Below, in pieces: positions 15,367 to 53,151 of a DNA stretch of 63,962 bases. Source of the DNA: a bacterium (GTDB lineage: Bacteria > Vulcanimicrobiota > Xenobia > Xenobiales > Xenobiaceae); contig JAFTAM010000182.1 of NCBI GenBank assembly GCA_017458675.1, forward strand, positions 1 through 63,962. The letters are read 5' to 3'. The position numbers were made by a program, and so were the translations under genes. The stretch's first letter is position 1. Each line of letters starts with the position of its first letter. Under the pieces are notes generated by a model, which saw only the letters and a list, made by a program, of their open reading frames with translations, had not been told where the DNA came from and made no database searches.

Positions 15367-15563
15367 TTAAAACTTCAGAAAAACAAAACTCTGCTACTAT
15401 ATATTATATGTTAAAAAGGCTTATTTGCCGAATGTTCGGGATGACGCTGCAGGCCGGGCAGCCCGCGGCGGCAGCGAATAATTCTGCACAGAACGCATAA
15501 CGCAAAATGCCGGGAATGACGCAGCCGCACTTTATTCTCAGCGGCGGAGAGCCGCGGAATTCC

Positions 15564-15965
15564 TTAAAGCGAAGAGCTCTTTCCCGAATCCGAGGGGCTT
15601 GCAGACATACCTCTCAGCCGGTAAGCCGAAACTGCCGCGCCCTGTCCGGTTCTGTCGCCCTTCACCGTACTGCAGGCACAGTCAATACGCGGGTCTGAGG
15701 GCATGCTGCGGACTGTTACCGTATAAATTATATTATCCAGCGTATCTGTCGTATCTCCGGAAGCGCTGAAGTCCATAGTCTTTTCCAGAGCCGCCGAGGC
15801 CACGACCAGATTGCGGTAGCGGCGCTCCAAATTGGCCACGCTCTGTACATGACGGCCGAAGCCGCTCAGCAGCGCGCCGAACACCATTGAAGCCAGCGCC
15901 AGCGCCACCAGCACCTCTATAAGAGAAAAGGCTTCAGTTTTTTTTAAGGCGCGGCGCTTCATCAT
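15564..15965 (-). CDS. Prepilin-type protein, GspI-like
   Basis: EA|FSLIEVLVALAL N-methylation motif; size and position upstream of the gspJ-like gene. Confidence 0.72.
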   Translation of the reverse strand: MMKRRALKKTEAFSLIEVLVALALASMVFGALLSGFGRHVQSVANLERRYRNLVVASAALEKTMDFSASGDTTDTLDNIIYTVTVRSMPSDPRIDCACSTVKGDRTGQGAAVSAYRLRGMSASPSDSGKSSSL

Positions 15966-15996
15966 ACAATGCCCTTCATTCACCTTACAAATTCAG

Positions 15997-17292: not shown

Positions 17293-17417
17293 AACCAGGC
17301 TATTTTTACCTTTCCGATACGTGCTTCCTTCTTGAATTTACGATTTTCTTCCGCCGACCCGGCAGAGAGGCGTCCCGCCGTTCCTGGAGCGGCAGAAAGT
17401 TCCGCTCCCGGCAAACT

Positions 17418-18686: not shown

Positions 18687-18757
18687 AAACCGATTTTTCC
18701 AAAAATAAATCAAATAGAACCGTATATCGGCTTCCGTCAATTTATCTGCCTAAGCGC

Positions 18758-21082: not shown

Positions 21083-21116
21083 TGACAATGTCTTTTACAC
21101 TCTCCCGAATATCTGC

Positions 21117-37005: not shown

Positions 37006-38349
37006 CTATTTGGTAACAATAGCGGTTAAGTCAACCTTGCGGGTATCGCTGAAGTTAGGCCACCAGTCAAAGCTACTGAAGGTCTGACCGTTGCGGACGA
37101 AAGAGCTCTTGTAGTTGTCGTGGCTGACCTTGATGGAGGTGATGCCCAACTCGGCAAGAGTCTTCAGTTCGGAAGGCTGAGCTATGGCGTCGCTGTTGAC
37201 ATCGGTCCAGACTCTCAGATCGTTGAGTTCTTCACCGCTGAGCTCGCCGTCTTTATTGGCGTCATAAGCAGCCATTTCCTCATAGCCGTTGTCAAAGCCG
37301 TTGGCGGTTCCGAAGAGGTTGGTACCGTTTACGGTTCCGTCGGCGGAAGGACGGCAGAGCAGACCGTCATGAGCTCCGACCCACTCGGTAACGACCGGAT
37401 AGCCGTTGCCGTAGTAGTCAAACATAGCCACATGGTTGCTGATGTCGTTGTGCATGAGATACTGACCGTTGGAGGCCTCGATCTTGCCGTCGCCGTCTAA
37501 GTCCAGAACGATGGGGCTGTAGGTGCGGGAGCCGGTAATCTCATAAGTTACGACTCTCTGACCGGTTTTTACCTCATAATCACGCTGGTGCTCGATAGTA
37601 ACCTTAGTGTGGGTTCTCTCGAAATAGTGGTGACGAGTATAATAATCATCCTGACGGTAATTATAAGTAGCATGACCGGAGGCGATATAACCGGTGCCGA
37701 CTAAATCATCGGGATCGCCGACGGCTACAAAGCCCTGGCCGCCGCCGGTAGTGGTTACGCCGGTGAAGTAAGTGTGACTTCCGGTTTTCACATCCTTGTG
37801 ACTTACTTCGCTGTACTCGGTATAATCGTCACGGTTGGTCTTCTTATAGGTCTCTACGCCTTTGCTGGTGCTTCTGTTATCAGAGACATTGGTCTGATTC
37901 CAGCCGCCCTGGCTGTAAGAGGTGTCGCGGCCGGAAGGCTGAGCCTGATAGACATAGCCTCTCATGCTGTTTTCAATCTGGCTCTGCAGACTGGAAAGGT
38001 TGCTGCCGGTTAAAGTATAGGTCTGAGTGTTGTCCTCAGCGGTATAATAGTGAGTTCCATTTGCTCTCGTATGCTGGTGAGCGCCGATTTCGTGATAATT
38101 CAAGGTTCCCTTAACAGTATAGCTGTCGGGAGAAGAACTGTCAGAATATCTCTTGTCGCCGTCTTTTACATACTCGGTCTTGGTGGCCTCGTTGGTCTTA
38201 TAGTGATTCTCGTGCTCGGTGATAATATTGTTGATGACAGTTTTGCTTTCGGTGGAGCCGCCCTCGTCAATGTCCGTAACAGCAGCCAAAGCAGGAAGAG
38301 TCAGAATTCCGCATAGCGCGGCAGTAATAATACCGTAACGATAATTCAT
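37006..38349 (-). CDS. Secreted protein with a C-terminal FrpC SPM-like domain (copy 2)
   Basis: Paralogue of 33539-35050: shares VTDIDEGGST, VAVGDPDDLVGTG and the YSPIVLDLDGDG domain; the middle is divergent. Confidence 0.8.
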   Translation of the reverse strand: MNYRYGIITAALCGILTLPALAAVTDIDEGGSTESKTVINNIITEHENHYKTNEATKTEYVKDGDKRYSDSSSPDSYTVKGTLNYHEIGAHQHTRANGTHYYTAEDNTQTYTLTGSNLSSLQSQIENSMRGYVYQAQPSGRDTSYSQGGWNQTNVSDNRSTSKGVETYKKTNRDDYTEYSEVSHKDVKTGSHTYFTGVTTTGGGQGFVAVGDPDDLVGTGYIASGHATYNYRQDDYYTRHHYFERTHTKVTIEHQRDYEVKTGQRVVTYEITGSRTYSPIVLDLDGDGKIEASNGQYLMHNDISNHVAMFDYYGNGYPVVTEWVGAHDGLLCRPSADGTVNGTNLFGTANGFDNGYEEMAAYDANKDGELSGEELNDLRVWTDVNSDAIAQPSELKTLAELGITSIKVSHDNYKSSFVRNGQTFSSFDWWPNFSDTRKVDLTAIVTK

Positions 38350-39783: not shown

Positions 39784-40950
39784 CTATTTCTTTTCCTTCA
39801 GCGCCGGACAGAAGAAACTCACCAGACGGTCCCAAACGCTGACCAAAAGCGCAGTCAGAGCCAGGATATCCAAAACCGCCGCAGCATAGACCCTGTAGGT
39901 GCAGATCATAATTTCCGAATATATAAAGACTATACCGAAACAGATTAAGGCCACGCCGTACCAGCGCATGAACGTGACGTCCTCCTTGAAGCCGAACTTG
40001 CCTATCAGCAGCACCAGCACATAGCCGAAACTCAGAAGGGGATACAAAAACGAGAGCGGCATCTTGGTCAGCAGCACCAGCCACAAAACCGTCGAGAGCA
40101 GATAGACGGCAAACCCCGCCAGAATTAAGGGACTGAAGCAGAGAGCCGCCGATTTGCAGAAGATAGCCTTGAAGGCCTTGGCAAATTCCTGTTTCAAATT
40201 CTTAACGCCCTCGGCAATAACCGACACCCGCTCCTTGTTGAAGTCTTTGTTCATGCCCGCCTTAAAGAGGATTTGCCCCACAATGCCCATGGGGATCGTC
40301 ACCACCAGCAGCAGCACGGGGATCGGCGTATCCGACTGCCAGGCCAGATCGGCCTTGGCCCAGGTGATGACGCACAGAGCGGCGGCGAAGAGCAAAAGAG
40401 CCATCAGCGAGCCCCAACGCACAAAAAACTTTTCCGCATAGACCGCCACAATGCCCATACTTATTAAAATAACGCCGAACCAGCGCAGCCAGGTGACCTC
40501 CTCCCCGAAGCAAAGCCAGCCCATGAGCAGTATGACCACATAGCCCAAACTTATCAGAGGATAGGCGAAACTCAAATCGACCTTGCTCAAAACCGAAAGC
40601 CAGCATATCGCCGAAAGCGCGTAAGCGACCAGTCCCGCAAAGACAATGGGGCGGAACATCAGGGCCAGACCGTAACCGCACATATAGAGAGCCGACATAA
40701 AAGAGCCGTGCAGCAGATCGCTGAAATTCTGCGCCATACTGCCGACATACCCGCTTGAAACCGGATCGTCCATGCCCAGTTTAAAAAGGTACTGACCGGC
40801 CAGACTCAATATCAGAAACAGCACAATCTGACCGGTGGGCTTTTTAGCCTCAGCCGATTTATTTTCTGCGCCGTTCTGTGCAGGATTTTCAATTTCATCC
40901 GGCTTTGATTTTAGTTTTTGTAAACTGTTTTCAGGTTCTGAAGTCTCCAT
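39784..40950 (-). CDS. DMT/EamA-superfamily transporter with two fused ArnE/ArnF-like units
   Basis: Twice-repeated GQ.LFK.GM ... W..L...LSF.YPL.S.GYV...EE/DVT..RW.GV.LI. Confidence 0.8.
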   Translation of the reverse strand: METSEPENSLQKLKSKPDEIENPAQNGAENKSAEAKKPTGQIVLFLILSLAGQYLFKLGMDDPVSSGYVGSMAQNFSDLLHGSFMSALYMCGYGLALMFRPIVFAGLVAYALSAICWLSVLSKVDLSFAYPLISLGYVVILLMGWLCFGEEVTWLRWFGVILISMGIVAVYAEKFFVRWGSLMALLLFAAALCVITWAKADLAWQSDTPIPVLLLVVTIPMGIVGQILFKAGMNKDFNKERVSVIAEGVKNLKQEFAKAFKAIFCKSAALCFSPLILAGFAVYLLSTVLWLVLLTKMPLSFLYPLLSFGYVLVLLIGKFGFKEDVTFMRWYGVALICFGIVFIYSEIMICTYRVYAAAVLDILALTALLVSVWDRLVSFFCPALKEKK

Positions 40951-40978: not shown

Positions 40979-43900
40979 TTACCGATTGTCTGCAGCTTTT
41001 TTCAAAATAGTTCCCCGACAGCAGCGTCCGTTCAAGCGCATGTGCAGAGGCGAAGACAGGCGCAGATGCAGCACCCCCTCTTCACGGCTGAGGCACTCCT
41101 GCTCCTGCAGCCAGAGCAAATCTATAAAATCTCTGTTGATATGCTCTATGCAGCGCAGGCTCTGCTCCTCCCGGCAAACCGTATTGAGACGGCTTTGAGT
41201 GATATTGTCGCAAAGCTCGTCGTTCAGGAAGGAGACGGTCATATAGCCTATGCGCATAGAGGCCAGCTCATGGAAAAAGTGCGAACCCATCGAAGGCTCG
41301 ACAAAACGGCTGCCGTAAGGGAGTTCAATAATGACCTTGGCCCCCAAAATCTGCCCAGTCTGCACGGGAATGCCCAGAGAGGGATCGGAAGAGCCCCAGC
41401 GTCCAGGGCCGATCAGCACATATGGGCGATTCTCCTTCAGCAGCGCCTCGTTGAGACGGCCTATGCGGGCGGCGGTCAGACGTCCCTTTTTAGGATCAGG
41501 GTCCCGATCCGCCACATAAATTATATCATACAGGTCATCGGCGCAGCCGTGTCCCAAAGAGTTGCAGGTACAAAAAATATCTTCCTCGGCATAACCGCAG
41601 GTCTGGACGCTTTCCCCTAAGGAGATATCCAGAAGAGGACGGATTTGCAGAAGATACAGAACCGCTTCGCCCCCGGGCGGATTTTCCACGGCAAACTCCA
41701 GCTCCACCGGACAGCCTATAGCCAGCTTAAAGCGTTCCAGAAGCTTGTCCAGAACCTTAGCCAGCGGCAGAGCCTCCCAGGCCAGAATATTGCTGAAGGT
41801 GACGGCCCGAGGTCCTTCATACATCAGAGAATCGCGCCAGGCGCCGCTTTTGGTGCAGAACACGGAAGCCGCCTGGGCCAGAGTTCCGTCTTCCTCGGCC
41901 TGAGACAGAGGCAGCGAGACAATGGCGTCGGGGCTGTCCGCGCCTTTGCTTTCCAAATCCAGCGCATAAAACTTTTTCTGAGAATACTTTAAATATTTTC
42001 CCTGATAGTATTCATGAGGCAGAAGCTTAGGCCATTTCGGGCTGAAGCGGACGCAGTTTTCGCCGCCGGCGACCGTCTTTCCGAACCCCAGCGCCATTGC
42101 GGCCACTCCGTCTTCGGGCTTCTGCGGCGCCATCGGATAGTAGTTGGACGACATGGCCACTCCCGCAAAATCGGGATAGAAATACCGGCCATGCTGACGG
42201 CCGACCAATTCCTGAACGATCACGGCCATTTTTTCTTCCTCGCCGGGATAGCGGGCATTTTCCAGATAAGCCCTGGCCTTGGAAGCGACCGCCGACATAT
42301 ATACGCGCTTGACGGCGCTGCAGATTAGCTTAAAGCGCTCTTCGCTTTCGCTGCTGCTGTCGGGAACCATACAGGTTGCGTAAATGCCGGCGCAGGACTG
42401 ATTCTGAGAATCTTCCAGAAGGCTGGAGGAGCGCACCGCCAAAGGCCCGTGCAGCAGCTTCAGAGCCGCCTTAAGCTCGGCGCTCACCGCATCGGGAAGC
42501 CGGGCCGACGCATAGAGTTTCTGCAGCTCCTCGTCGGAAAGATTTTTCTGCAGGCCTTTGACAAAGCCGTTAAACTCCATGAAGCTGTCATAAATATCCG
42601 TGCCCAAAACCACGGTTTTGGGGATATCGACCTTCAGGCCAGCAAACTGTCCGATAAATTTATCGTTGGCCAGCCGGGAATTGATAAAAGCTATGCCGCG
42701 TCCCTTGCCGCCTACCGAACCTCCGCCGATCTTGAAGAAATTATGCAGAGAATGACTGTCCGCCTTAGGAGTAAAATCGGCGATCCTGCCGTTCTGCTCC
42801 AGCAAGGCGTGTTTGTTTAAAACCTCAATTATATAATCGCGGAGCTTCTCGGGAGAGGGAAAGTCCTCAGCCCTGATCTGTTCAACCTCATCGGCCAGAT
42901 CAAAATAATTGCGGGCCCTGAGCCAGACGTTAAAATGGTTGTTGGAGGCATGATAATAAACCGATTGGAGGTCGACGGTGCGCAGTAAATTTTCCAAATC
43001 GTAGGTATCGTGGGCGCGAGCCACTTCCCGACGATCCGGCATACGGAAGACGAAATCGCCGAAGCCCAGGCTCTCCTCCAGAAAAAGATGCAGCGCCTGT
43101 CTGAGCTTGTCGGGATGCTTAAATGCAAAGTGCCAGCCCTTAGCCTCGCTGCGCTGACGGTTGGCCGCATCCGAAGACTGCAGCAGAACCGGCAGACGCT
43201 GCTTGCGGGCCGAGCAGTATTCGGCCAGCTTAAAGCCGGCCTCTTCATCCTTTTGTCCCTCTCTGACAAAGCTTACGTCGCTTATTAAAGCTAAAACGTA
43301 GCGGGAATGCCGGTCGAACAGTCTTTGAGCTTCTTCATAGTTCTCGGCCAGAAGAATTTTGGGACGGGCCAGCATTCTCAGCATGCGCTGAGCAAAGTTA
43401 ACGCCCTCGCCGGAAAGCAGGCGGCTCTGCTCCATAAGCTCATCGTAAAGGTGGGTCAGCAGTATGGAATAGTCGCCTATTCTATCCTCTACTGCGATGA
43501 TAACCTGAACGCCGGTATGGGCGGTATCGCTGTCTACGTTTAAGATATCTTCAACATAATTGAAAATTGCCGTAGTCAGCCGAAAATCACCGGTCCACAG
43601 AAAGACGCCCGCAACCTTGTTTAAGCCTTCGGAGATATTGCTGCGGCGCAGCAGCATTTCATCCAAAATCAGCAGAACGATAGGCAGAGAAGGAAAGGCC
43701 CTGCGCACTTTGTCGACAGAGCCGATAATATTGTTTTCACCCTCGCGCAGCACCTCGACCACAAGATCGACGCGCCTGCTCTGCATAAATTCTATGGCCT
43801 GCTCCGCCGAGGTCACATGAGAGATGCGCGGCGCTCCCACCATATAAAATTCCGTATATTTAAAAAAGAGCAGTTCAGCCAGCTGCCCCTCGGCCTCCAG

Positions 43901-43987
43901 CACAAAAAAATCGTATTCGGAGGCCAGAAGCAGAACCTCGCGCACCCGATAGGGCGCCAGCTCATGAAACTTGCGGATCGAACGCAT
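40979..43987 (-). CDS. Receiver-like plus PEP/pyruvate-binding (PPDK_N-like) domain protein
   Basis: VREVLLLAS.YD.F.LE.EG N-terminus; IGGGSVGGKGRG, AVRSSSLLED, EEKMAVIVQE and LIGPGRWGSSDP motifs; family I recall next to gdhA. Confidence 0.88.
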   Translation of the reverse strand: MRSIRKFHELAPYRVREVLLLASEYDFFVLEAEGQLAELLFFKYTEFYMVGAPRISHVTSAEQAIEFMQSRRVDLVVEVLREGENNIIGSVDKVRRAFPSLPIVLLILDEMLLRRSNISEGLNKVAGVFLWTGDFRLTTAIFNYVEDILNVDSDTAHTGVQVIIAVEDRIGDYSILLTHLYDELMEQSRLLSGEGVNFAQRMLRMLARPKILLAENYEEAQRLFDRHSRYVLALISDVSFVREGQKDEEAGFKLAEYCSARKQRLPVLLQSSDAANRQRSEAKGWHFAFKHPDKLRQALHLFLEESLGFGDFVFRMPDRREVARAHDTYDLENLLRTVDLQSVYYHASNNHFNVWLRARNYFDLADEVEQIRAEDFPSPEKLRDYIIEVLNKHALLEQNGRIADFTPKADSHSLHNFFKIGGGSVGGKGRGIAFINSRLANDKFIGQFAGLKVDIPKTVVLGTDIYDSFMEFNGFVKGLQKNLSDEELQKLYASARLPDAVSAELKAALKLLHGPLAVRSSSLLEDSQNQSCAGIYATCMVPDSSSESEERFKLICSAVKRVYMSAVASKARAYLENARYPGEEEKMAVIVQELVGRQHGRYFYPDFAGVAMSSNYYPMAPQKPEDGVAAMALGFGKTVAGGENCVRFSPKWPKLLPHEYYQGKYLKYSQKKFYALDLESKGADSPDAIVSLPLSQAEEDGTLAQAASVFCTKSGAWRDSLMYEGPRAVTFSNILAWEALPLAKVLDKLLERFKLAIGCPVELEFAVENPPGGEAVLYLLQIRPLLDISLGESVQTCGYAEEDIFCTCNSLGHGCADDLYDIIYVADRDPDPKKGRLTAARIGRLNEALLKENRPYVLIGPGRWGSSDPSLGIPVQTGQILGAKVIIELPYGSRFVEPSMGSHFFHELASMRIGYMTVSFLNDELCDNITQSRLNTVCREEQSLRCIEHINRDFIDLLWLQEQECLSREEGVLHLRLSSPLHMRLNGRCCRGTILKKAADNR

Positions 43988-44029
43988 ATTTATTTTCTTT
44001 CTGAATTCGTTTAAAGACGCGGCGGCCGC

Positions 44030-45382
44030 TTAAACAATGCCCTGGTCGACCATGGCGTCGGCTACTCTGACAAAGCCGGCTACGTTGGCCCCGCGCACAT
44101 AGTTGACAAACCCCTCGTCGCTGCGTCCGTAGCGCACGCAGGCCCCGTGAATCGAACGCATAACCTGACTGAGGCGCTCGTCTATTTCATCCAGCGACCA
44201 ATTCTCGTGGGAAGCGTTCTGAGCCATTTCCAAACCGGAAGCAACCACGCCGCCGGCGTTGACGGCCTTGCTGGGGCCGAAGAGAACTTTGCTGCGCAGA
44301 AACTCGCTTACGGCGTCGGGCATGCAAGACATATCGGAAGCCTCGGCCACAGCGGTTACGCCGTTTTTGATCAGCTCTTTGGCGTCCTCCAGGAAGATCT
44401 CATTCTGAGTGGCCGCCGGAACGGCTACGTCGCAGGGTATACTCCAGGGATTGGCCCCGTCTAAATACTCCGCCCCGTCAAATTCGTCTATATATTCGTA
44501 AATGCGGCCCCGGCGCAGATTCTTAAGCTCCATAATCCAGTCCAGCTTATCCTCGTCTATGCCGTCGGGATCGTAAATCGTGCCGTCGGAATCCGACATG
44601 GTCAGCACCTTAGCCCCCATGGCGATAGCCTTTTTGGCCGTAAACTGCGCCATATTGCCGGAGCCGGAAATAACGACCCTTTTGCCTTCCAGGCTCTCAT
44701 GGCGGCGGCTCAGCATATTCTCAATAAAGTAAACTACTCCGAATCCGGCCGCTTCGGGACGGAGCATCGAACCGCCCCACTCCATGCCTTTATTGGTGAC
44801 CGCTCCGGAGAACTGCCCGGTCAGCTTTTTGTACATGCCGAACAGATAGCCGACCTCTCTGCCCCCTACTCCCAGACCGCTGGAAATTACGTCGTGAGTC
44901 GGTCCGATATGTCGGTAAAGCTCCGTCATAAAGGACTGGCAGAAACGCATGACCTCCATATCGGATTTGCCCTTGGGATCGAAATCGGAGCCGCCCTTGG
45001 CCCCGCCCAGAGGCAGGCTGGTCAGCGAATTGCGGAAGACCTGCTCAAAAGCCAGAAACTTAATTATGCTCAGATTGACGCTGGGATGAAACCTGATGCC
45101 TCCCTGCAGAGGCCCTATGGCGCTGCTCATCTGCACGCGATAGCCCCTGTTGACCTGCACGTTGCCCAAATCGTCAACCCAGGGGACCCTGAAAATGATC
45201 GAACGCTCCGGCTCCACCAGACGCTCCAGAACTTTCATGCGCCTATAAACAGGATTAGCCTCTACCACCGGGATGACCGAAGAAAAAACCTCGCGCACAG
45301 CCTGTAAGAATTCGGGCTCGCCGGGGTTCCTCACCGTTACCTGACTCATAATAAAATCCAGAGCATTGGCTTTGATACTCAT
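44030..45382 (-). CDS. gdhA: NADP-type glutamate dehydrogenase homologue with a degenerate active site
   Basis: Full-length GDH fold (EPEFLQAV, FRVPWVDD, GGAKGGSDFDPKG, SGSGN, GANVAGF), but GPYK>GPLQ, FKN>FRN and PAGD>ISSG. Confidence 0.85.
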   Translation of the reverse strand: MSIKANALDFIMSQVTVRNPGEPEFLQAVREVFSSVIPVVEANPVYRRMKVLERLVEPERSIIFRVPWVDDLGNVQVNRGYRVQMSSAIGPLQGGIRFHPSVNLSIIKFLAFEQVFRNSLTSLPLGGAKGGSDFDPKGKSDMEVMRFCQSFMTELYRHIGPTHDVISSGLGVGGREVGYLFGMYKKLTGQFSGAVTNKGMEWGGSMLRPEAAGFGVVYFIENMLSRRHESLEGKRVVISGSGNMAQFTAKKAIAMGAKVLTMSDSDGTIYDPDGIDEDKLDWIMELKNLRRGRIYEYIDEFDGAEYLDGANPWSIPCDVAVPAATQNEIFLEDAKELIKNGVTAVAEASDMSCMPDAVSEFLRSKVLFGPSKAVNAGGVVASGLEMAQNASHENWSLDEIDERLSQVMRSIHGACVRYGRSDEGFVNYVRGANVAGFVRVADAMVDQGIV

Positions 45383-45485
45383 AAATACTGCAGGGCCCTC
45401 GCAAGTCAAAAAGATTCGTAATTTTCAAACTTCTTCGCAATATATGAGCGTTCCTATACAATTACTGCCGCTGCGCCGCAAGCAT

Positions 45486-45564: not shown

Positions 45565-48500
45565 TTAGTCGACGGCCTTTAAAACATTGCGCGTACCTTT
45601 GCCGGAGCAGGTCTGGCATTTTTTAGTCGCCGCGCAGGTCGGACAGTTCATCTTGCCGGTGTCGCTGCAGGAGAAGCACTTGGAGGCTCCGGCCATTTTA
45701 AACGCCGAGCAGGCGACTTTGCCGCTGCCCTTGCAGGTTTTGCATTTGCCGCCGCCCTTTACATAGCAGGCCGAACAGGTCTGAGAGACCCACTTATTGC
45801 CCTTCTTGCCCATCTGGCTGCTGCAGCTGAGGCTGTAGGAGCGCTTCTTGGGAGTGAGAGCGAAAGACTTAATGCTCTTTTTGCTTCCGGCGGTTATCGT
45901 ACCGACTGTCAGCGTATCGGCGGAGGTCTTCGGAGTGAAGACGATCTTGCCGTCGGCATATTTGCTCTTGGACGTATAGGAACCGGAGGCTGTGCTCCAT
46001 TTCATGGAGGCGGCGGATACGGAAGAGGGAACGTTGGTCAGAGTTACGGTGTAGGCGACGCTGCAGGCCTTGAAGCCGGAGCCCATGCCCAGAGTTCGGG
46101 TATTGCGGCCCTCGTTGGGATTGGAGGCGTTCTTGTTCTGCCCGTACTTCATCGTGAAAGAGCTTGCATAGTACCTGTTGCCGACGGTAATCTTATTCAC
46201 CTTTATCGAAGCGGCCGTAGTTTTGACGGTATCAAAGTGCATGACGTAGCGCTTGGCGACGGGGTCGTATCTGACCGAGCCGTTGGCCGTATAGCTCTTG
46301 CCGCTGGGCAGAGTGTAGGTCATCGTGCCCTTGCGTCCGACGATGTTGGCGGTCCCGTTGGTTACATTGACCGCATAGCGCGTGTTCTGAGCCGACAAGC
46401 CGCTGTAAAGCAGGCCGTAAGTCTTGCCCATGGCGATAGAGCGATCCTTGACGCTGACAGAGTTATCCAGAGTTACGGACTTTATGACGGCGGTATCGTA
46501 ATCTATGCCGTTGAGCGCAGAGGGCGTAAAGGAGAAAGTATAGGTCTTATCGGCGGAGCTGTAGGTTCCGGCGGTCTTTTTGTAAGTTGATGAAGAATAA
46601 GCGCCGGTTTTGCTGTTGTAAAGCTTGTAAGTGACAACAATATAATTGGCCGCCGACTTGACGTTCTTTACCACCAGCTTGGCGTAAGGCATATTGGCGT
46701 ATTTAATTGTATTGGAGGATTTTACGCAGTTAAGGGCTATGCTGTTCGAATAAACTCTGCTGTTTACAATAATTTTTGTTACGGTTACATCGTCATTGGC
46801 ATTAAATTTAAAATTAACAGTCTGTGAAGAACTGTTATATGTGCCGCTTGCAGTATACTCAGTGGTATTGCCATACTTTTTATAATAAAGTCTGCACGAA
46901 GCGGGCTTAGAAGAAACGCCGCTGACGCTTTGACAGTAACTTATAGACTCGCGATCCATATTGCTGTAGCCGCTGAACAAATCCATACGGGAATTCATCT
47001 CCGGATTAAAATTGGTCAGCTTCTCGGAGCAGCTCATATAGCGGTTGTTGACCTGAACCTCTCTCAACACAATAATATCGGCGGCAGAGCTAATTCTTGC
47101 CTCCGCGTTTTCCGAAGACAAAATATTGTAATCTGAAGCGCTGCCGGCGAATAAAGCCTCGCGAATCTCCGAGGAATTGCCGGCGGTGTATCTGAGCTTC
47201 AGAGACGAACCGGCAGGCTTGGTAAATTTAAAAATATAGTCAATGGGTTCGCCGAGTACAAAATCATAGTAAGACAGCACCTCGATATGAGCGCTGCCGT
47301 TAAGCTCGATTCTCTTGGCGGTCTCATAGGAAGCGGCGCCGACCTCAATTTTGTTGAGAGTTATATAAGAAGCGTTCGTTAAAATTTTTCCGAAGGTCAG
47401 CATATTGTCATCATAAGAAGCAATACTGACGGTTTTAACCTCAGAGGCGCCGTCCTCGGTGTAGGAGAGGCTGAACTCAGTCGGCTCGCAGGCCAGATCG
47501 GTTATGCGGAAATAGACGTATTTGCCGTATAAGGTTTCAGCCCCGGCCTCGCCGTCGTAGATTAGCCTGAAGCTTTTCAAGCTTTCAGCCTCGCCGCCTA
47601 CCGGCTCGGCCCCGCTCTCCTGCCTCTGGGCGATTTCAACGGTACAGCCGCCTTTTTCCGCGTCAATCTGCAGCGGGAAGAAAAGGAAGGCCCCGTCCTC
47701 GCTTCCGGAGTTCTCGCTAAGGCTGAGACTTTCAAGCTTTATAGGGAAAAGCTCGCTGTCGATATCGAAATATATGCGCAGAGCGTTGTTTTCATCCAGG
47801 ACAGCCTCGCTGCTGCGGACGCTGCCGTGCGCTCTTCCGTCATAGCTGAGCGGAACAGCCACGCCTGCCTCGGAAGAAGGAGCGGAAGCGGCGCTTTCGC
47901 CCTGAGCGGCCAAAGTCTGCGCCTCGGCTTCCTCTTCGGGAACGGCCTCGGCCTCCAAAGCGGCGGCTTCTGCAGCCTCGCCGTCCTCGGCTCCGCCTTC
48001 TTCAGTCTCTAAAGCGGCTTCCGGTTCGGCCTCAGCCGTCTCATCCTCCAACTCGGCAGCTTCCGAATCAAGCTCCGCATCATCCGTGCAGGGCTCGGAG
48101 ACATGCTCATGATCGCAGTCCCCGCAGTCTTCGCCGATTTCCTCAGCTCCGCCGGCAGCTGCGCTGTCTTCGCCGCCTTCAGAGTCGTCTTCACCGTCAA
48201 GAGGCTCCTCCTCATAATCAAAAGCAGCTTTGTCCGCGGCTTCCTGCTGCAGAAGCTCCGCTTTTTCCTCATCGGTATACAGAGGGATGGGAACCTCGGC
48301 CGAAACTTTGCCGTTTGCCGAAGCATCGACGCTCAGTTCGCAGATATTTAAAACCGCCTGCAGATTCTCGGGAGCGATTTCCCCTCCGTAATCGGGCAAT
48401 AATAAACATAGGCGCTGAGCGCTTGCCAAATCGGCCTTTACCGCGGCGGCCTCGCCCTTGCCTAAATCATATCTGCTGTCGGAGCAGGCCGAAAGCAAAG

Positions 48501-48579
48501 AAGCCAGCAGCAGCAAAAGGCCCAAAAATAAGCTGAGCTTTAAAGCCGACGTCCGTCTGAGTCCGAAGGACCTATCCAT
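45565..48579 (-). CDS. Large lipoprotein: acidic linker, repeated beta-rich Tyr/Thr/Lys domains, C-terminal DnaJ-type CxxCxGxG Zn-finger
   Basis: Lipobox LLSAC; E/D/A-rich segment; CKTCKGSG, CFSCSDTG and CQTCSGKG. Confidence 0.82.
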   Translation of the reverse strand: MDRSFGLRRTSALKLSLFLGLLLLLASLLSACSDSRYDLGKGEAAAVKADLASAQRLCLLLPDYGGEIAPENLQAVLNICELSVDASANGKVSAEVPIPLYTDEEKAELLQQEAADKAAFDYEEEPLDGEDDSEGGEDSAAAGGAEEIGEDCGDCDHEHVSEPCTDDAELDSEAAELEDETAEAEPEAALETEEGGAEDGEAAEAAALEAEAVPEEEAEAQTLAAQGESAASAPSSEAGVAVPLSYDGRAHGSVRSSEAVLDENNALRIYFDIDSELFPIKLESLSLSENSGSEDGAFLFFPLQIDAEKGGCTVEIAQRQESGAEPVGGEAESLKSFRLIYDGEAGAETLYGKYVYFRITDLACEPTEFSLSYTEDGASEVKTVSIASYDDNMLTFGKILTNASYITLNKIEVGAASYETAKRIELNGSAHIEVLSYYDFVLGEPIDYIFKFTKPAGSSLKLRYTAGNSSEIREALFAGSASDYNILSSENAEARISSAADIIVLREVQVNNRYMSCSEKLTNFNPEMNSRMDLFSGYSNMDRESISYCQSVSGVSSKPASCRLYYKKYGNTTEYTASGTYNSSSQTVNFKFNANDDVTVTKIIVNSRVYSNSIALNCVKSSNTIKYANMPYAKLVVKNVKSAANYIVVTYKLYNSKTGAYSSSTYKKTAGTYSSADKTYTFSFTPSALNGIDYDTAVIKSVTLDNSVSVKDRSIAMGKTYGLLYSGLSAQNTRYAVNVTNGTANIVGRKGTMTYTLPSGKSYTANGSVRYDPVAKRYVMHFDTVKTTAASIKVNKITVGNRYYASSFTMKYGQNKNASNPNEGRNTRTLGMGSGFKACSVAYTVTLTNVPSSVSAASMKWSTASGSYTSKSKYADGKIVFTPKTSADTLTVGTITAGSKKSIKSFALTPKKRSYSLSCSSQMGKKGNKWVSQTCSACYVKGGGKCKTCKGSGKVACSAFKMAGASKCFSCSDTGKMNCPTCAATKKCQTCSGKGTRNVLKAVD

Positions 48580-48624: not shown

Positions 48625-51600
48625 TTAATCTATGTCCTGACCGTAAATTAAACTGTTATTGAAGAGCATCATCTTAAAGAAGCTGTTCATACCGCCCCAC
48701 ATGCCGAATACGCTGGAAGAAGCTCCGACGGAATAGGTCATATTGGGAGTGATATAATAGTTCAATGACCAGGGCACGATATCGGAAACCGATAAATTTG
48801 TCCCCATGCCGACTGGCGTAATCGGCGGGAGAGCTCCGTAATACTGATAAGCGGCTGCGGTCAGACTGGAATCGTAGGTCTTGCCGGGAATTAAAGTGGA
48901 CAGCCGATAGGCGGAAGGGATACTGTCGGCGGCGCCGGAGCTGTTTAACAGCAGAGCCTTGCCGTAATCGGCATAAATATCCGCAAAGCTGACTTCCTTC
49001 CCGGTATCCTCGCCGACAACGGCGGCCAGCAGATCAAAATCCTTATGAGCAGCTCCGTACGGTAAATTAGCATAGTCGCTGTCATTGGGAGAACTGTTGT
49101 AAAATTTGTTAACCGTATTTAAACCGTAGTGATCGTAAAGATAGGTCAGGAAGAAGCAGCCCTGGCCGTAATTGGCAATCGTAGAGCTTCCCGAAGCGGC
49201 ATAATAGCCGGCGTCTTTAATGCTGTAGCTGCCGAGGCCGTTCAGATAAGAATACGACTTAACTCGGCGGTCCAAAGCCTTGGATGCATAACTGACTGCC
49301 CAGGAGGGCAGAGACGTCAGACCGACAAGGTTTTGGAATTCCGAAAAATCCCCGGTTCTGTCGTCGCAGCCGAAACCGCACAGGAAGCTGCACAGATCGG
49401 CATGGCCCTCTTCCAGAATGCTCATTCTGTCTACATAGCGATTGGCAGCCGCAATGTAACCGTCGGGCATATCGCGGAAGGCTCGGGTATTGAACGACAC
49501 CATATGGGCAAATTCATGGGCGAAATTTGAACACATGCTGGCCGGATCGAACTGCTGATATTTCGAGTAATTAAATGTGATCATCTCACATTCGTTGCTG
49601 GTATTTATCAGTTTCCTGGGGAAGCAGTTGGTGGCTATAGTATAAGCGATAGTGCCGCTTTCTCCGATATCGGCAATTGATATTACAACCTTTTCGAGTT
49701 CGCTTACGCCGCCTCCGCAGCCGTATCCGCATTCATGGCCGACGTCGGAGCGGATGCGCTCAAGCACAGGCTTGCCCTCTGAATCGAAGGGATTCTTGAC
49801 GCCCAGCATATAATCTATCATCAGAACTTGGAGAAGATCTACAGAGTTTGTCAGATCCAGAAGCGGCGTACCGTCCTTAATCTCCGCTAAAATAATGACC
49901 TTCCCCGAAGTCCTGTAGCCATTGCTTAAAGTCAAGCCGTCGCCGCCCAAAATTACCTTGGCGTCATAAGAGGCTTTGCGTACGGAGTCGTATACGCCGC
50001 TGACGGTGTCTCCGCTTTTGGCGTTGACATAATCGAGAGTCTTCGGATAAGCGTCGTCCATACTGAAATTGAGCCGGGAACCGCCCGAATTCTTTTTGAA
50101 CTTCTCAAAAGCTTCGGCTTCCTGTCTGCGGATCTCCGACTCGCCCTGCCCGCCGCCGTCAAGAGTTTTTGTCAATCTTCCGTCCGCCTCCGCCGCCGAC
50201 TGATTGACGGCCGAGGGCGTTCCTCCGGCGATACCGCCGCTGAAGCCGCCCTTGGTAGAGGTTCCGTCCGGCGCATAAATCGCCAGCGTCACCGCCCGAT
50301 TATTTGACAAATCGGCCTGTCCGTACTGATACAAACTGTCGCTGCAGACGCCTGAAGCATAAGCTTTCAGGTCGGCGTACCGGCTGCCCAGAGCCGCTCT
50401 GAACGTAGATTCGCCGGCCCGGCCTATTCTCCAGGAGTTATTGGCCGCGCCCTTGGTCATATCCGAACTGGACCACACCGCCTCGGTCGAGACGTCGCGG
50501 GTCTGGATAATTTTGCCGGAATTGAAGGTCAGCTCAGCCTGGGCGCTCCCGACGACGTATTCGCCAGGTCTCTTCAAGCTATGACCGGGAGAAGCCGCAA
50601 AGGACTTAATGTAAGCGTCCATGGCGCTGCCGGAAGCGACGCTGACGCCGTTTAAAACCGCCTTATTGTCCTCGCCGAAATTCAGGGCCTGATAATGCAG
50701 ACCGGCCAGCTGGCCGGAAGTATTTTTCACCTTTATGACAATGCCGTCGGCTTCGGACGAAACCTCGTCAAAACTCAGGGATGAGGAACTGTTTCTGCTG
50801 AACTCTTCGCTGACCGCAGTCCCTTCCTTAAAAAGCTGACAGTAAATCAGCGAAGAATTCGCCGGCAGGCCGTCGGCGGCGAAATTGATTTCGACGCTGT
50901 ATGCCGGCGGAATATCGGCGACAAAAATCTGCGCCGATGAAGAGGTTAAACCTCTGTAGGAGGCGCTGATGATATATTGGCCCGCTTCATAGACCTTGAG
51001 CCGGTACTTTGCTTCAGAAGAATAATACTCCAAATAAGGGGCGCTGTTTAAAGCGAAATCCTCCCAGCCGCAGATATCGCTTCGGCTGAAGGTCTCCGAC
51101 CAGCCGTCTGCGTAGCCGTAAGTCAGGGCGGGCTCAGTACTGACGGTTAAATAGCCGTCGGCGTTCTTATTTATGAGCTGATATTCTGCAGGCGAAATGC
51201 TTAAGCTCAGCTCGGCTTTTTCCTGAGCAAACTGCTCCCCGGTCAGCAAATCGGGCTGGTTAATCCTGCAGATCTGCCCTTCCTTCAGGCTGATATTCTG
51301 TTCAAACATGCCCCAGGGCTCGCCGTCGGAGGTCTTTATGACGCCGATAACCTTGACGGTATTTTTGTTTATATCCGCAAAGGTCGAATTCAAATCGGAA
51401 ACGCCCTGCTCGCTGAAAAGCAGCGTGCCCCGGCTGCTGTAGCCGCGCGCCTCATAAACGGCGCCCGAAGGCAGTCCGGAAGAGCTGAGATCGATATTGA
51501 GCTGATAATCTCCGCTTACAGGACTGGAAGAGTCGATAACTTCTACAGAGAATACGCCCGTAATGCCCCGATAGCTCACCGAAACCGTATACTCGCCGGC

Positions 51601-52992: not shown

Positions 52993-53151
52993 ACCGCCGC
53001 CTTTCGTCAATAAAATAATTTCTGTTGACGCAGAGTATTTCCGCAGTTAAATGCCGCTTAAACGCAGACTGCACGCTTTAATTATAACAAAACCACGCTG
53101 TTTTCAATTTATTATCGGTTAATTTTTTGTAAATATAGATCGAACCGAGCT

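What the first reader, a model, noticed from the sequence alone, without database searches (positions are those of the whole stretch)
40979..45382. Apparent pseudo-enzyme glutamate dehydrogenase paired with a receiver/PEP-synthase-N protein
Seen: the GDH is intact and closely GdhA-like, yet substitutions cluster on active-site motifs. GPYKGG>GPLQGG removes the gamma-carboxylate Lys (K89 in C. symbiosum numbering), FKN>FRN changes K113, DVPAGD>DVISSG loses catalytic D165, and TGK>TNK, RPEATG>RPEAAG and EGANMP>EASDMS also differ. The Schiff-base Lys (GGAKGG) and the nucleotide-binding SGSGN/SDS motifs are kept. Known: K89 and D165 mutants lose most glutamate activity, and Thermus thermophilus uses a non-catalytic GDH paralogue as a regulatory subunit. 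Inference: this protein is a ligand or NADP(H) sensor, a regulatory subunit, or an enzyme with a new substrate. It may act with the downstream 1002-aa receiver/ATP-grasp protein, which shows no obvious phospho-His domain, as an undescribed nitrogen/carbon signalling module.
Basis: partly seen in the sequence, partly recalled or inferred. Interest (0 to 1): 0.78.

Follow-up and report, generated by a model that had tools for sequence, protein, structure and literature searches.

The report
Re-tooled glutamate dehydrogenase beside dikinase-like regulator
A gut bacterium keeps, under strong selection, a glutamate dehydrogenase copy that has lost the residues needed to bind and convert glutamate, still paired with the signalling enzyme that sits beside normal versions of this gene in many bacteria, which hints that the pair does something other than plain glutamate turnover.

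Summary
ORF 44030-45382(-) is a full-length GdhA-type protein. It has K89Q, K113R, A163S, G164S, D165G, TGK>TNK and EGANMP>EASDMS, while the catalytic Lys and the NADP motifs are kept.

The changes are not private. All GdhA-type genes seen in three genera of Xenobiaceae (phylum Vulcanimicrobiota) carry them, and contigs from another study's animal-gut run do too. Where dS is unsaturated, dN/dS is 0.004-0.03. Of 186 columns near-invariant in 108 canonical GdhA, 10 are changed in nearly all 14 variants. A canonical small-type GDH lies elsewhere in the genome.

The neighbour is a pseudo-receiver, receiver, DUF5752, PPDK_N ATP-grasp protein. Its C-terminal domain looks like a phosphohistidine swivel domain and has an invariant His.

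The gene pair is ancient. 54 of 80 loci from many phyla have a GDH gene within 6 kb, and every one outside this clade is canonical. This scan had already noted the GDH-linked family on other DNA. The new point here is the re-tooled GDH.

My best reading (0.45) is that the protein no longer acts as a glutamate dehydrogenase and is kept for a non-catalytic or changed role in this module. A new substrate is the main rival (0.3).

The parts
44030..45382 (-). GdhA-type glutamate dehydrogenase homologue with a re-tooled substrate pocket (450 aa from the ATG at 45382; the ORF is open up to the TTG at 45409)
   Evidence: ORF, translation. (ELFV_dehydrog_N and ELFV_dehydrog). (NF006929, 676.7 bits, cut-off 536). 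(E. coli GDH structures, E about 1e-164). (relatives are 450 aa).
45104..45106 (-). Codon for Gln102, equivalent to Lys89 of C. symbiosum GDH (Lys92 in E. coli), the gamma-carboxylate partner
   Evidence: K in 108/108 canonical; Q13/H1 in the variants. The codon is unchanged in a contig of run X2, from another study.
45032..45034 (-). Codon for Arg126, equivalent to Lys113 (Lys116 in E. coli), which faces the alpha-carboxylate
   Evidence: R10/K3/Q1 among 14 variants.
44996..44998 (-). Codon for Lys138, equivalent to catalytic Lys125 (Lys128 in E. coli), retained
   Evidence: K138 invariant in alignment A3.
44876..44887 (-). Codons for Ile175-Ser176-Ser177-Gly178, replacing the Pro-Ala163-Gly164-Asp165 loop; the catalytic Asp is lost
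   Evidence: PAGD 108/108 canonical; G 14/14 at the Asp position. Contigs of runs X3 and X4 cover it with no differences.
44792..44794 (-). Codon for Asn206, replacing the Gly of the TGK motif
   Evidence: G 108/108 canonical; N11/S2/G1 in the variants.
44333..44335 (-). Codon for Asp359, replacing the Asn of the EGANMP motif
   Evidence: N 108/108 canonical; D 14/14 in the variants. Unchanged in a contig of run X2.
40979..43987 (-). 1002-aa partner: pseudo-receiver, receiver, DUF5752, PPDK_N ATP-grasp and a swivel-like C-terminal domain
43514..43945 (-). Partner residues 15-158: atypical receiver-like domain (Asp74 invariant; the usual Thr/Ser and Lys positions are not apparent)
   Evidence: alignment A1; alternating strand/helix model; PleD tandem receivers, E 2e-6.
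43070..43504 (-). Partner residues 162-306: receiver domain with Glu167-Asp168, Asp237 (codon 43277-43279), Ser271 and Lys290 all invariant
   Evidence: invariant columns. (PF00072 in homologues). (no Pfam hit in this protein itself).
42788..43054 (-). Partner residues 312-400: DUF5752 region with the conserved GFGDFVFR motif and invariant His346, Trp355 and Arg359
   Evidence: (PF19027, E 7.7e-5, just below cut-off).
41618..42739 (-). Partner residues 417-790: PPDK_N-type ATP-grasp nucleotide-binding domain
   Evidence: E 1.7e-35. (rifampin phosphotransferase 5hv1 E 1.3e-12, HpeI 9goj 2.4e-11, PEP synthase 2ols 7.7e-9).
40982..41599 (-). Partner residues 797-1002: C-terminal domain with GPGRWG and GSHFF motifs, swivel-like fold, invariant His903 (codon 41279-41281)
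   Evidence: invariants. (model pLDDT 86.4). (2fm4 Z 8.2, 1vbg Z 7.3, 5hv1 757-867 Z 7.3). Against: searches show no sequence-level match.
39784..40950 (-). DMT/EamA-like membrane protein (ArnF-like and ArnE-like halves, below cut-offs), 28 bp downstream of the partner; probably the third gene of the operon in this genus and the sister genus
   Evidence: families. (homologue directly downstream of the partner in 3 of 4 g4 loci and nearby in the fourth; not found in the g2, g5 and f3 loci examined).

Best explanation
The gene is the orthologue of gdhA in a gut-associated lineage of Xenobiaceae (three genera, including Candidatus Bruticola). Its glutamate pocket has been rebuilt.

Lost residues:
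- the gamma-carboxylate Lys;
- the catalytic Asp, together with its Ala-Gly neighbours;
- the Asn of EGANMP, which is now Asp.

Kept residues:
- the catalytic Lys;
- the Gly-rich loops;
- the NADP(H) fingerprint.

I conclude (inference) that it no longer carries out the ordinary glutamate/2-oxoglutarate reaction. That task falls to the canonical small-type GDH elsewhere in the genome.

The protein is kept under strong purifying selection because of its role in an ancient two-gene module. The second member of the module is a response-regulator-controlled, dikinase-like phosphotransferase: an ATP-grasp domain that probably loads a phosphoryl group onto His903 of a swivel-like domain.

The mechanism I think most likely, all inferred, has three parts:
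1. In the ancestral module the GDH is both an enzyme and the sensing or regulated partner of the phosphotransferase. This would be a 'trigger enzyme' arrangement, comparable to VadK acting on methylcitrate-cycle enzymes.
2. In this lineage the enzyme role was given up.
3. The protein persists as an NADP(H)- or metabolite-binding subunit that works with, or is modified by, its neighbour.

Shown: the residue changes, their conservation, the selection, the second GDH, the conserved adjacency and the partner's domain make-up.
Inferred: loss of activity, cofactor binding, His phosphorylation and any contact between the two proteins.
For: 1. Residues changed. K89Q, K113R, A163S, G164S, D165G, G>N in TGK and N>D in EGANMP. 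Passages of bioRxiv 10.1101/2024.12.26.630402 give the roles in C. symbiosum GDH: Lys89 and Ser380 bind the gamma-carboxylate, Lys113 and Gln110 face the alpha-carboxylate, the Gly164 carbonyl and the 'catalytic Asp165' face the amino group, and Ala163 lines the pocket.

2. A clade trait.
- 12 of the 120 best cluster representatives (74-95% identity) share the pattern; the other 108 are canonical.
- All 14 genomes of genera g1, g2 and g4 searched carry it. One is seen only in its C-terminal part. Genera g3 and g5 and families f2, f3 and f13 are canonical.

3. Targeted change. 10 of 186 columns that are at least 97% conserved in canonical GdhA are changed in nearly all variants.

4. Loosened pocket. 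Pocket positions invariant in canonical enzymes vary inside the clade: Y91 is L/F/Y, K116 is R/K/Q, P165 is I/V/A/L, A166 is S/T/A/I, T211 is A/T/S/G. Genus g2 adds K116Q and S380A. Columns in the cofactor domain stay nearly fixed.

5. Selection. dN/dS is 0.004-0.03 for variant pairs with dS 0.3-1.2. Canonical GdhA of sister genera gives 0.03-0.10, and the partner in g4 gives 0.044-0.06.

6. A canonical GDH exists. It is 427 aa, with GPGKGG, GGAKGG, DVPAPD and EGANGP, on contig C178. A small-type GDH match is present in every g4 genome searched.

7. The module.
- The GDH and partner genes are adjacent in 23 of 27 related genomes that have a GdhA-type hit.
- 54 of the 80 loci examined, out of 594 relatives found, have a GDH ORF within 6 kb.
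- 41 GdhA-type and 10 small-type ORFs lie within 700 bp, in several orientations.

8. The partner is unchanged. Only 1 of 151 conserved columns differs in the 13 variant-associated partners.

9. Precedent. The abstract of PMC13400623 describes VadK, a PPDK-derived His-autophosphorylating kinase that interacts with metabolic enzymes and tunes their flux.
Against: - No activity, binding or phosphorylation data exist for any member.
- Several of the new residues are themselves invariant in the clade: Gly at 165, Asp at the EGANMP Asn, Gly at N188, and Ser at 164 in 13 of 14. The catalytic Lys and the NADP motifs are also kept. This looks like a newly constrained site, as expected for a new ligand or substrate, rather than a merely dead one.
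- Selection is as strong as, or stronger than, on canonical enzymes, which is unusual for a purely regulatory remnant.
- A transporter gene joined the operon in two of the three genera, which could point to a small-molecule product.
- The swivel-domain assignment rests on mid-range structural scores only. Z 8.2 is in the range the tool calls common, and hhalign found no profile similarity to PF00391-type domains.
- The genome is 90% complete, so a further GDH cannot be excluded.
Confidence: 0.45

Rival explanations
1. New-substrate oxidoreductase. The pocket was rebuilt for a different amino, imino or 2-oxo compound, for example a neutral or polar side chain, or a substrate without a free alpha-carboxylate. 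The protein would still be an NADP(H)-dependent enzyme, perhaps with the new Asp (ex-Asn of EGANMP) replacing the lost Asp165. The product might leave the cell through the DMT-type transporter encoded downstream.
For: - New residues are fixed across the clade: G at 165 and D at the Asn position in 14/14, S at 164 and Q at 89 in 13/14.
- The catalytic Lys, Gln110, Asn373, Val377 and the NADP fingerprint are retained.
- dN/dS is very low.
- A transporter gene was added to the operon in g1 and g4.
- Recalled, not from a call: engineered amine dehydrogenases were made from Leu/Phe dehydrogenases by changing the Lys and Asn equivalent to K113 and the EGANMP Asn, so these two positions govern carboxylate recognition.
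Against: - The Asp equivalent to D165 is called catalytic (passage; title of Paradisi et al. 2005 in the reference list of PMC4079599), and it is replaced here by Gly.
- Pocket-lining positions vary within the clade, and g2 also loses K116 and S380. That is not expected for one defined substrate.
- The partner shows no co-ordinated change.
Confidence: 0.3
2. Still a working glutamate dehydrogenase. The substitutions compensate for one another: Arg for Lys113, Gln for Lys89, and the new Asp supplying the lost carboxylate. The enzyme would keep useful, perhaps altered or more tightly regulated, glutamate activity.
For: - NCBIfam scores it above the cut-off of the NADP-GDH equivalog (676.7 against 536).
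- 176 of 186 conserved columns are not changed in nearly all variants.
- Purifying selection is strong.
- The gene occupies the ancestral gdhA position beside the same partner.
Against: - Two direct glutamate contacts and the catalytic Asp are lost together.
- All 108 canonical relatives listed, from many phyla, keep these residues without exception.
- Genus g2 has lost still more contacts.
- Recalled: point mutants at K89 and D165 of the clostridial enzyme lose activity by orders of magnitude.
Confidence: 0.12
3. An artefact or a decaying gene: sequencing or assembly errors, or a pseudogene on its way out.
For: None found. The genome is a fragmented, metagenome-style assembly of 196 contigs.
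Against: - The frame is open over its full length.
- The same changes occur in 14 genomes of three genera.
- They also occur in contigs of a run from a different study (X2: the codons for Gln102 and Asp359 are unchanged).
- dN/dS is 0.004-0.03.
Confidence: 0.01

Closest known systems
NADP-specific glutamate dehydrogenase GdhA (E. coli, PDB 3sbo/4fcc; C. symbiosum GDH, 1bgv)
   Same: Same length, two-domain ELFV fold and about 58-60% identity. The catalytic Lys, Gly-rich loops, Gln110, Asn373, Val377, Ser380 and the NADP fingerprint are kept. It also scores above the NF006929 cut-off.
   Different: It lacks the gamma-carboxylate Lys (Gln), the catalytic Asp (Gly), Ala163/Gly164 (Ser/Ser), the Gly of TGK (Asn) and the Asn of EGANMP (Asp), and has Arg for Lys113. 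These residues are invariant in 108/108 canonical relatives.
Thermus thermophilus GdhA/GdhB hetero-hexamer (PDB 3aoe), in which GdhA is a catalytically inactive regulatory subunit
   Same: A GDH-family protein that is probably not catalytic itself yet is retained. The precedent is described in passages of PMC9570180.
   Different: In Thermus the two subunits are close paralogues of the small type and assemble together. Here the canonical GDH is a different subfamily (31% identity) on another contig. The altered protein replaces the orthologous gdhA rather than being an extra copy. Its conserved neighbour is a dikinase-like regulator, not a second GDH.
VadK (Rv1127c), a PPDK-derived histidine-autophosphorylating kinase that interacts with methylcitrate-cycle enzymes
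   Same: It derives from the PEP-utilising dikinase scaffold and is used for regulating metabolic enzymes rather than for making PEP (abstract of PMC13400623). It is a model for what the 1002-aa neighbour may do to or with GDH.
   Different: I made no sequence comparison with VadK here. The neighbour has two N-terminal receiver-type domains and DUF5752, and its C-terminal domain has no PF00391 signature. The target and the phosphorylation are unproven.
Rifampin phosphotransferase (5hv1) and the two-component dikinase HpeHI (HpeI, 9goj)
   Same: They are the best structural matches of the ATP-grasp part (E 1.3e-12 and 2.4e-11). The ATP-grasp domain comes first and the swivel domain last, as in rifampin phosphotransferase, whose residues 757-867 match the C-terminal domain at Z 7.3. 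The swivel-His mechanism is described in the abstract of PMC12167813.
   Different: There is no rifampin-binding-type acceptor domain. The neighbour has receiver domains and is genomically tied to GDH rather than to antibiotic or aromatic metabolism.
Trigger enzymes such as Bacillus subtilis RocG, a GDH that controls the regulator GltC (recalled, not from a call)
   Same: A glutamate dehydrogenase that doubles as a signalling protein by binding a regulator.
   Different: RocG stays catalytically active and its partner is a DNA-binding regulator. Here catalysis appears to have been given up, and the partner is an ATP-grasp phosphotransferase-like response regulator.

Membership tests
NADP-specific glutamate dehydrogenase (GdhA, EC 1.4.1.4; NCBIfam NF006929) | Overall sequence above the family's curated cut-off, with both ELFV domains | tested here: met
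   NF006929 scores 676.7 bits against a cut-off of 536. PF02812 and PF00208 match over their full length.
NADP-specific glutamate dehydrogenase (GdhA, EC 1.4.1.4; NCBIfam NF006929) | Catalytic Lys (K125 in C. symbiosum, K128 in E. coli) in GG[GA]KGG | tested here: met
   GGAKGG is present and K138 is invariant in A3.
NADP-specific glutamate dehydrogenase (GdhA, EC 1.4.1.4; NCBIfam NF006929) | Catalytic Asp (D165/D168) in DVPAGD | tested here: not met
   The motif reads DVISSG, with Gly at the Asp position. It is Asp in 108/108 canonical sequences and Gly in 14/14 variants.
NADP-specific glutamate dehydrogenase (GdhA, EC 1.4.1.4; NCBIfam NF006929) | Gamma-carboxylate-binding Lys (K89/K92) in GPYKGG | tested here: not met
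   The motif reads GPLQGG. It is Lys in 108/108 canonical sequences and Q13/H1 in the variants.
NADP-specific glutamate dehydrogenase (GdhA, EC 1.4.1.4; NCBIfam NF006929) | Alpha-carboxylate contacts: Lys113 (FKN) and the Asn of EGANMP | tested here: not met
   FRN and EASDMS are found. The Asn is Asp in 14/14 variants, and Lys113 is R10/K3/Q1.
NADP-specific glutamate dehydrogenase (GdhA, EC 1.4.1.4; NCBIfam NF006929) | Dinucleotide fingerprint and the NADP-type SDS motif | tested here: met
   SGSGNMA and SDSDG are present and conserved in the clade.
NADP-specific glutamate dehydrogenase (GdhA, EC 1.4.1.4; NCBIfam NF006929) | Glutamate/2-oxoglutarate turnover | not testable with these tools
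   This needs an enzyme assay.
Non-catalytic GDH regulatory subunit (Thermus GdhA type) | Encoded next to, and assembling with, a closely related catalytic GDH paralogue | tested here: not met
   The only other GDH in the genome is 31% identical and on contig C178. Hetero-oligomer formation itself is not testable here.
PEP-utilising dikinase superfamily (PEP synthase, PPDK, rifampin phosphotransferase): the neighbour | PPDK_N ATP-grasp nucleotide-binding domain | tested here: met
   PF01326 E 1.7e-35. Foldseek gives 5hv1 at 1.3e-12 and 2ols at 7.7e-9.
PEP-utilising dikinase superfamily (PEP synthase, PPDK, rifampin phosphotransferase): the neighbour | Phosphohistidine swivel domain (PF00391) with a TSH-type His | tested here: inconclusive
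   There is no Pfam hit, and hhalign against 12 PF00391 domains of related genomes gives probability 1%. However, the top structural matches are swivel domains: 2fm4 Z 8.2 with 117 residues aligned, 1vbg Z 7.3, 5hv1 Z 7.3, 2e28 Z 7.0 and Enzyme I Z 6.4/6.0. His903 is invariant and sits at a helix start.
PEP-utilising dikinase superfamily (PEP synthase, PPDK, rifampin phosphotransferase): the neighbour | PEP/pyruvate-binding TIM-barrel domain (PF02896) | tested here: not met
   There is no such Pfam match. The model has no further domain after the C-terminal swivel-like domain.
Response regulators (receiver domain, PF00072): the neighbour | Receiver fold with an acidic pair, a phospho-acceptor Asp, a Thr/Ser and a Lys | tested here: met
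   Glu167-Asp168, Asp237, Ser271 and Lys290 are invariant in 32 sequences including this one. PF00072 is recorded for many homologues. The fold matches the PleD receivers. Pfam itself does not hit this protein.

The most novel reading that the evidence does not exclude
The widespread GDH plus receiver-dikinase pair may be a metabolic signalling device in which the GDH protein, not its reaction, is the working part. The GDH would sense the redox or nitrogen state through bound NADP(H) or a metabolite, and would gate, or be phosphorylated by, an ATP-grasp/swivel-His enzyme that stands in for a histidine kinase. On this reading the gut Xenobiaceae variant is a natural separation-of-function allele: catalysis was discarded while the signalling role was kept under strong selection. 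It would be the first case of a class-I GdhA turned into a dedicated pseudoenzyme sensor.
Probability: 0.3. Interest if true: 0.85.

Novelty: new variant of a known kind. Interest (0 to 1): 0.62.

Why it matters
Glutamate dehydrogenase is a textbook enzyme with near-immutable active-site residues. Here a whole gut-associated lineage has replaced its gdhA with a version lacking the catalytic Asp and the glutamate-specific Lys, and selection on that version is at least as strong as on normal enzymes. That means either a new chemistry on an old scaffold or a pseudoenzyme with a selected non-catalytic job.

The gene also keeps its ancient neighbour, a receiver-controlled dikinase-like protein that sits beside canonical GDH genes in many phyla. 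I found no paper on that protein family. The variant therefore gives a direct handle on what links the two proteins. If the module still works without glutamate turnover, the link is regulatory or structural rather than a shared metabolite.

This makes an unstudied, widespread candidate control system for nitrogen and carbon metabolism experimentally approachable.

Tried and rejected
- Complex prediction. GDH residues 14-459 with partner residues 450-1002, both given as alignments, returned no verdict (score 0.00, mark 0.32). This says nothing either way. The N-terminal half of the partner was not tried because only one job was allowed.
- Foldseek of the C-terminal domain against the PDB gave nothing at E<=0.001. 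The PPDK and pyruvate-kinase rows had the highest probabilities, but they were weak.
- hhalign of the C-terminal domain alignment (A2) against 12 PF00391 swivel domains from related genomes (A4) gave probability 1%.
- Pfam on the partner's N-terminal 320 and C-terminal 223 residues gave nothing even at E<=10.
- ESM Atlas look-up of the DUF5752 region returned only unnamed or DUF5752 clusters scoring 0.82 or less.
- Search for GDH-partner fusions among longer homologues. 1 of 92 (P0333, a singleton) carries ELFV and PPDK_N domains. Its GDH part is cut at both ends, so it may be a read-through artefact, and I did not count it as evidence.
- Clustering all stop-to-stop ORFs of the 80 loci found no other recurrent neighbour. 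The large clusters were shadow frames of the two genes.
- RNA evidence: no RNA holder was listed for the locus.
- Literature. There were no hits for 'DUF5752', none for 'glutamate dehydrogenase' with 'pyruvate-binding domain' and 'response regulator', none for 'PF01326' with 'glutamate dehydrogenase', and no listed paper holding 'PPDK_N' together with 'response regulator' or 'output domain'. The library covers open-access papers and bioRxiv only. Supplements were not available.
- A branch-site test for positive selection on the stem branch was not done. Only pairwise Nei-Gojobori estimates were made, and many pairs are saturated at synonymous sites.
The statement that the changed residues line the pocket rests on alignment to solved GDH sequences and on the roles described in the passages.

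Full report
**Observation**

The minus strand of the window carries three tightly spaced ORFs:
- 44030-45409, with a likely start at the ATG at 45382;
- 40979-43987, 42 bp downstream of the first;
- 39784-40950, 28 bp further downstream.

The first ORF translates to a full-length ELFV dehydrogenase. It scores above the curated cut-off of the NADP-GDH equivalog NF006929 (676.7 against 536 bits). It aligns end to end with the solved E. coli GDH chains 4fcc and 3sbo (E about 1e-164).

The offsets to C. symbiosum numbering agree with the 1bgv match range. The substitutions are therefore K89Q, K113R, A163S, G164S and D165G, plus Gly>Asn in TGK and Asn>Asp in EGANMP.

Passages of bioRxiv 10.1101/2024.12.26.630402 describe the canonical roles:
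- Lys89 and Ser380 bind the gamma-carboxylate.
- Lys113 and Gln110 face the alpha-carboxylate.
- The Gly164 carbonyl and the catalytic Asp165 face the amino group.
- Ala163 lines the pocket.

**The changes are neither chance nor private**

I looked at the 120 best cluster representatives in the 5.8-billion-protein collection. 8000 candidates were scored and only the best 120 were listed.
- 12 of them (74-95% identical) share the pattern.
- The remaining 108 (68% identical or less, from many phyla) are canonical at every one of these positions.
- Two of the 12 are named by NCBI as coming from Candidatus Bruticola MAGs, in Vulcanimicrobiota, Xenobiaceae.

I then searched 60 related genomes.
- The variant is present in both genomes of the window's own genus. 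G001 is seen without its last 23 residues.
- It is present in 10 of 10 genomes of genus g4.
- It is present in both genomes of genus g2. G006 shows only its C-terminal part.
- Genera g3 and g5 of the same family, and families f2, f3 and f13, have canonical GdhA.
- Genus g2 is the most diverged. It additionally has K113Q and S380A and a long branch in the tree (0.85).

In the tree, the variants plus g2 form one group with 100/100 support. This group is separated from the canonical sequences by the longest internal branches (0.2 + 0.18, midpoint-rooted).

Contigs from public animal-gut runs hold near-identical DNA. Run X2, which comes from a different study than the probable source, covers the codons for Gln102 and Asp359 without change. 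Runs X3 and X4 cover the Ser-Ser-Gly loop without any difference.

**Selection**

All values are pairwise Nei-Gojobori estimates.

| Comparison | dN/dS | Note |
|---|---|---|
| Variant GDH, pairs with unsaturated dS | 0.004-0.03 | e.g. dN 0.002, dS 0.418 |
| Canonical GdhA of sister genera g5/g3 | 0.03-0.10 | |
| Partner gene in g4 | 0.044-0.06 | |

Many of the deeper pairs are saturated at synonymous sites. The gene is plainly not decaying.

**Where the changes fall**

186 columns are at least 97% conserved among the 108 canonical sequences.
- 10 of them are changed in nearly all 14 variants. In approximate E. coli numbering these are K92, L106, P165, A166, G167, D168, N188, G196, Y213 and N348.
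- 50 of them are changed or polymorphic somewhere in the clade.
- The polymorphic ones are concentrated in the substrate domain: Y91, K116, S131, P165, A166, G172, L194, G196 and T211.
- Columns in the cofactor domain are nearly untouched.

So the glutamate site has lost its old constraints. Part of it has acquired new, fixed residues: Gly at 168, Asp at 348, Gly at 188 and Ser at 167. The rest of the protein, including the catalytic Lys and the NADP fingerprint, is held fast.

**A second GDH**

The genome is 3.28 Mb in 196 contigs and 90% complete. It has one other GDH, on contig C178. This is a 427-aa small-type enzyme with all the canonical residues: GPGKGG, GGAKGG, DVPAPD and EGANGP. Its best NCBIfam match is the archaeal/Bacillus-type GdhA model, below that model's cut-off. 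No second GdhA-type gene was found.

**The neighbour**

The 1002-aa protein matches PPDK_N at residues 424-787 and, weakly, DUF5752. It belongs to a large family: more than 4000 clusters reach E<=1e-20 among the 7996 candidates scored, and they come from many phyla. Many members are recorded with Response_reg plus PPDK_N.

A 32-sequence alignment shows these invariant residues:
- Glu167-Asp168, Asp237, Ser271 and Lys290, which is a complete receiver signature in the second domain;
- Asp74, in an atypical first receiver-like domain;
- His346;
- a set of ATP-grasp residues;
- GPGRW at 860-864;
- His903.

The AlphaFold model (pLDDT 84.2) has five domains. Foldseek matches the ATP-grasp to rifampin phosphotransferase, HpeI, PEP synthase and PPDK. 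It matches the N-terminus to the tandem receivers of PleD.

I modelled the C-terminal 206 residues separately (pLDDT 86.4).
- They have no Foldseek hit at E<=0.001.
- They have no profile similarity to PF00391 domains.
- The exhaustive structural search, however, ranks phosphoryl-carrier swivel domains first:
  - the PPDK carrier domain 2fm4 at Z 8.2, with 117 of 128 residues aligned;
  - maize PPDK residues 387-517 at Z 7.3;
  - rifampin phosphotransferase residues 757-867 at Z 7.3;
  - the C-terminal domain of B. stearothermophilus pyruvate kinase at Z 7.0;
  - Enzyme I at Z 6.4 and 6.0.

These Z values are in a range the tool warns is common, so I call the assignment likely, not shown. His903 lies at the start of helix 903-910. 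As I recall, that is where the phospho-His sits in PPDK.

**The pair is ancient and widespread**

- In 23 of the 27 related genomes with a GdhA-type hit, the two genes are adjacent. Two of the four exceptions are at contig ends.
- A pattern scan of 185,579 species genomes found 594 relatives of the partner. I examined the 80 best.
- 54 of those 80 have a GDH ORF within the 6-kb flanks. Of the 26 without one, 9 have a flank shorter than 3 kb.
- 41 GdhA-type and 10 small-type GDH ORFs lie within 700 bp of the partner. The arrangements vary: upstream co-directional (26), downstream convergent (9), downstream co-directional (5) and others. This argues for functional coupling rather than inherited operon order.
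- The carriers are named as Ignavibacteria, Acidobacteriota, Bacteroidota, Eisenbacteria, Gemmatimonadota, Zixiibacteriota, Planctomycetota, Myxococcales, Calditrichia and others.
- Every GdhA-type neighbour outside Bruticola is canonical.
- In genus g5 the small-type GDH is itself followed by a paralogous 1061-aa PPDK_N protein. That paralogue shares the ATP-grasp, GPGRWGS and GTHFF motifs.

Earlier notes of this scan had already recorded the GDH link of this family on other DNA. I reached it independently. Those notes also gave the lead to VadK.

**Partner unchanged, transporter added**

Of 151 columns that are at least 95% conserved in 106 other partner homologues, only one (Asp126, now mostly Ala) differs in the 13 partners associated with variant GDHs. 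I defined that association by sequence identity and shared contig length, and I did not verify the pairing for the 106 others.

A DMT/EamA-like membrane protein follows the partner in the window and in 3 of the 4 g4 loci examined. It is nearby in the fourth. It was not found in the g2, g5 and f3 loci examined.

**Interpretation**

The protein fails three defining residue tests for a glutamate dehydrogenase while passing every global one. I therefore do not file it as a working GdhA.

Two readings fit.
1. Given the loosened pocket, the further losses in g2, the presence of a canonical GDH and the unchanged partner, I favour (0.45) a non-catalytic or no-longer-glutamate role within the module. 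This would be a GDH-derived NADP(H)- or metabolite-binding subunit that works with a receiver-gated dikinase-like enzyme. The abstract describing VadK shows that PPDK-derived His kinases can regulate metabolic enzymes by interaction.
2. The fixed new residues, the retained catalytic Lys, the very low dN/dS and the added transporter keep a new-substrate oxidoreductase well alive (0.3).

Residual GDH activity (0.12) and artefact (0.01) are less likely.

Nothing here shows binding, phosphorylation or activity. The single complex prediction gave no verdict.

**Novelty**

Inactive GDH subunits are known in Thermus (passages of PMC9570180). This case differs from Thermus in three ways:
- It belongs to a different GDH class.
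- It is an orthologous replacement, not an extra paralogue.
- It sits in a conserved module with an uncharacterised signalling enzyme, for which my four literature searches found nothing.

I rate it a new variant of a known kind. Its particular value is as a natural separation-of-function allele for the GDH-dikinase module.

Noticed in passing
L119 3691-7889 (G005 contig C11); also G008:C184, G010:C200, G003:C72 and G012:C67: In genera g5 and g3, the small-type GDH gene is immediately followed by a second, paralogous PPDK_N protein. In L119 it is 1061 aa and the stop and start overlap. It has a weak C-terminal nucleotidyltransferase (NTP_transf_2) match, reminiscent of the GlnE/GlnD type of enzyme-modifying proteins.
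   Followed up: partly
L046, L042, L053, L081, L090, L098, L101: In several phyla the partner gene is flanked on one side by a GdhA-type GDH and on the other by a small-type GDH. Some loci also hold a second partner paralogue (L053, L074, L101, L102, L111).
   Followed up: partly
G007:C9:29660-29881, G005:C2:16611-16829, G008:C9:10623-10841, G001:C141:2745-2963, G003:C103:7024-7242 (compared): In related Xenobiaceae, a classical PEP-utilizers (PF00391) protein of about 860-925 aa, which is PPDK-sized, lies within a few kb of the GDH-partner pair and is divergently transcribed in g4. In the window's genome the corresponding genes are on other contigs (C73, C104).
   Followed up: no
window 45565-48579 (-): A 1004-aa protein with a lipoprotein-like N-terminus, a long Glu/Ala/Asp-rich low-complexity stretch, Ser/Thr/Tyr-rich repeats and a C-terminal run of CxxCxGxG motifs like the DnaJ zinc finger. 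It has no Pfam match.
   Followed up: no
window 48625-53010 (-) and 53152-57561 (-): Two adjacent giant ORFs (1461 and 1469 aa), followed by ORFs of 384 and 601 aa. None has a Pfam match at E<=0.001.
   Followed up: no
window 33539-35050 (-) and 37006-38349 (-): Two proteins of about 450-500 aa whose only Pfam signal is a C-terminal EF-hand.
   Followed up: no
window 13497-21088 (-): A type II secretion or pilus-like gene set (GspK-like at 13497-14600, GspC-like at 17418-18740) lies next to a 776-aa SpoIIE phosphatase fused to an HATPase_c_2 anti-sigma-kinase-like domain at 18758-21088.
   Followed up: no
P0333: A singleton 1016-aa metagenomic protein joins a GDH that is truncated at both ends to a PPDK_N domain. 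It is either a real fusion of the two module genes or a frameshift read-through.
   Followed up: partly
P0251-P0325: A large group of about 875-aa proteins, some named from Izimaplasma MAGs, fuses PF06245 (DUF1015) to a GdhA-type GDH.
   Followed up: no
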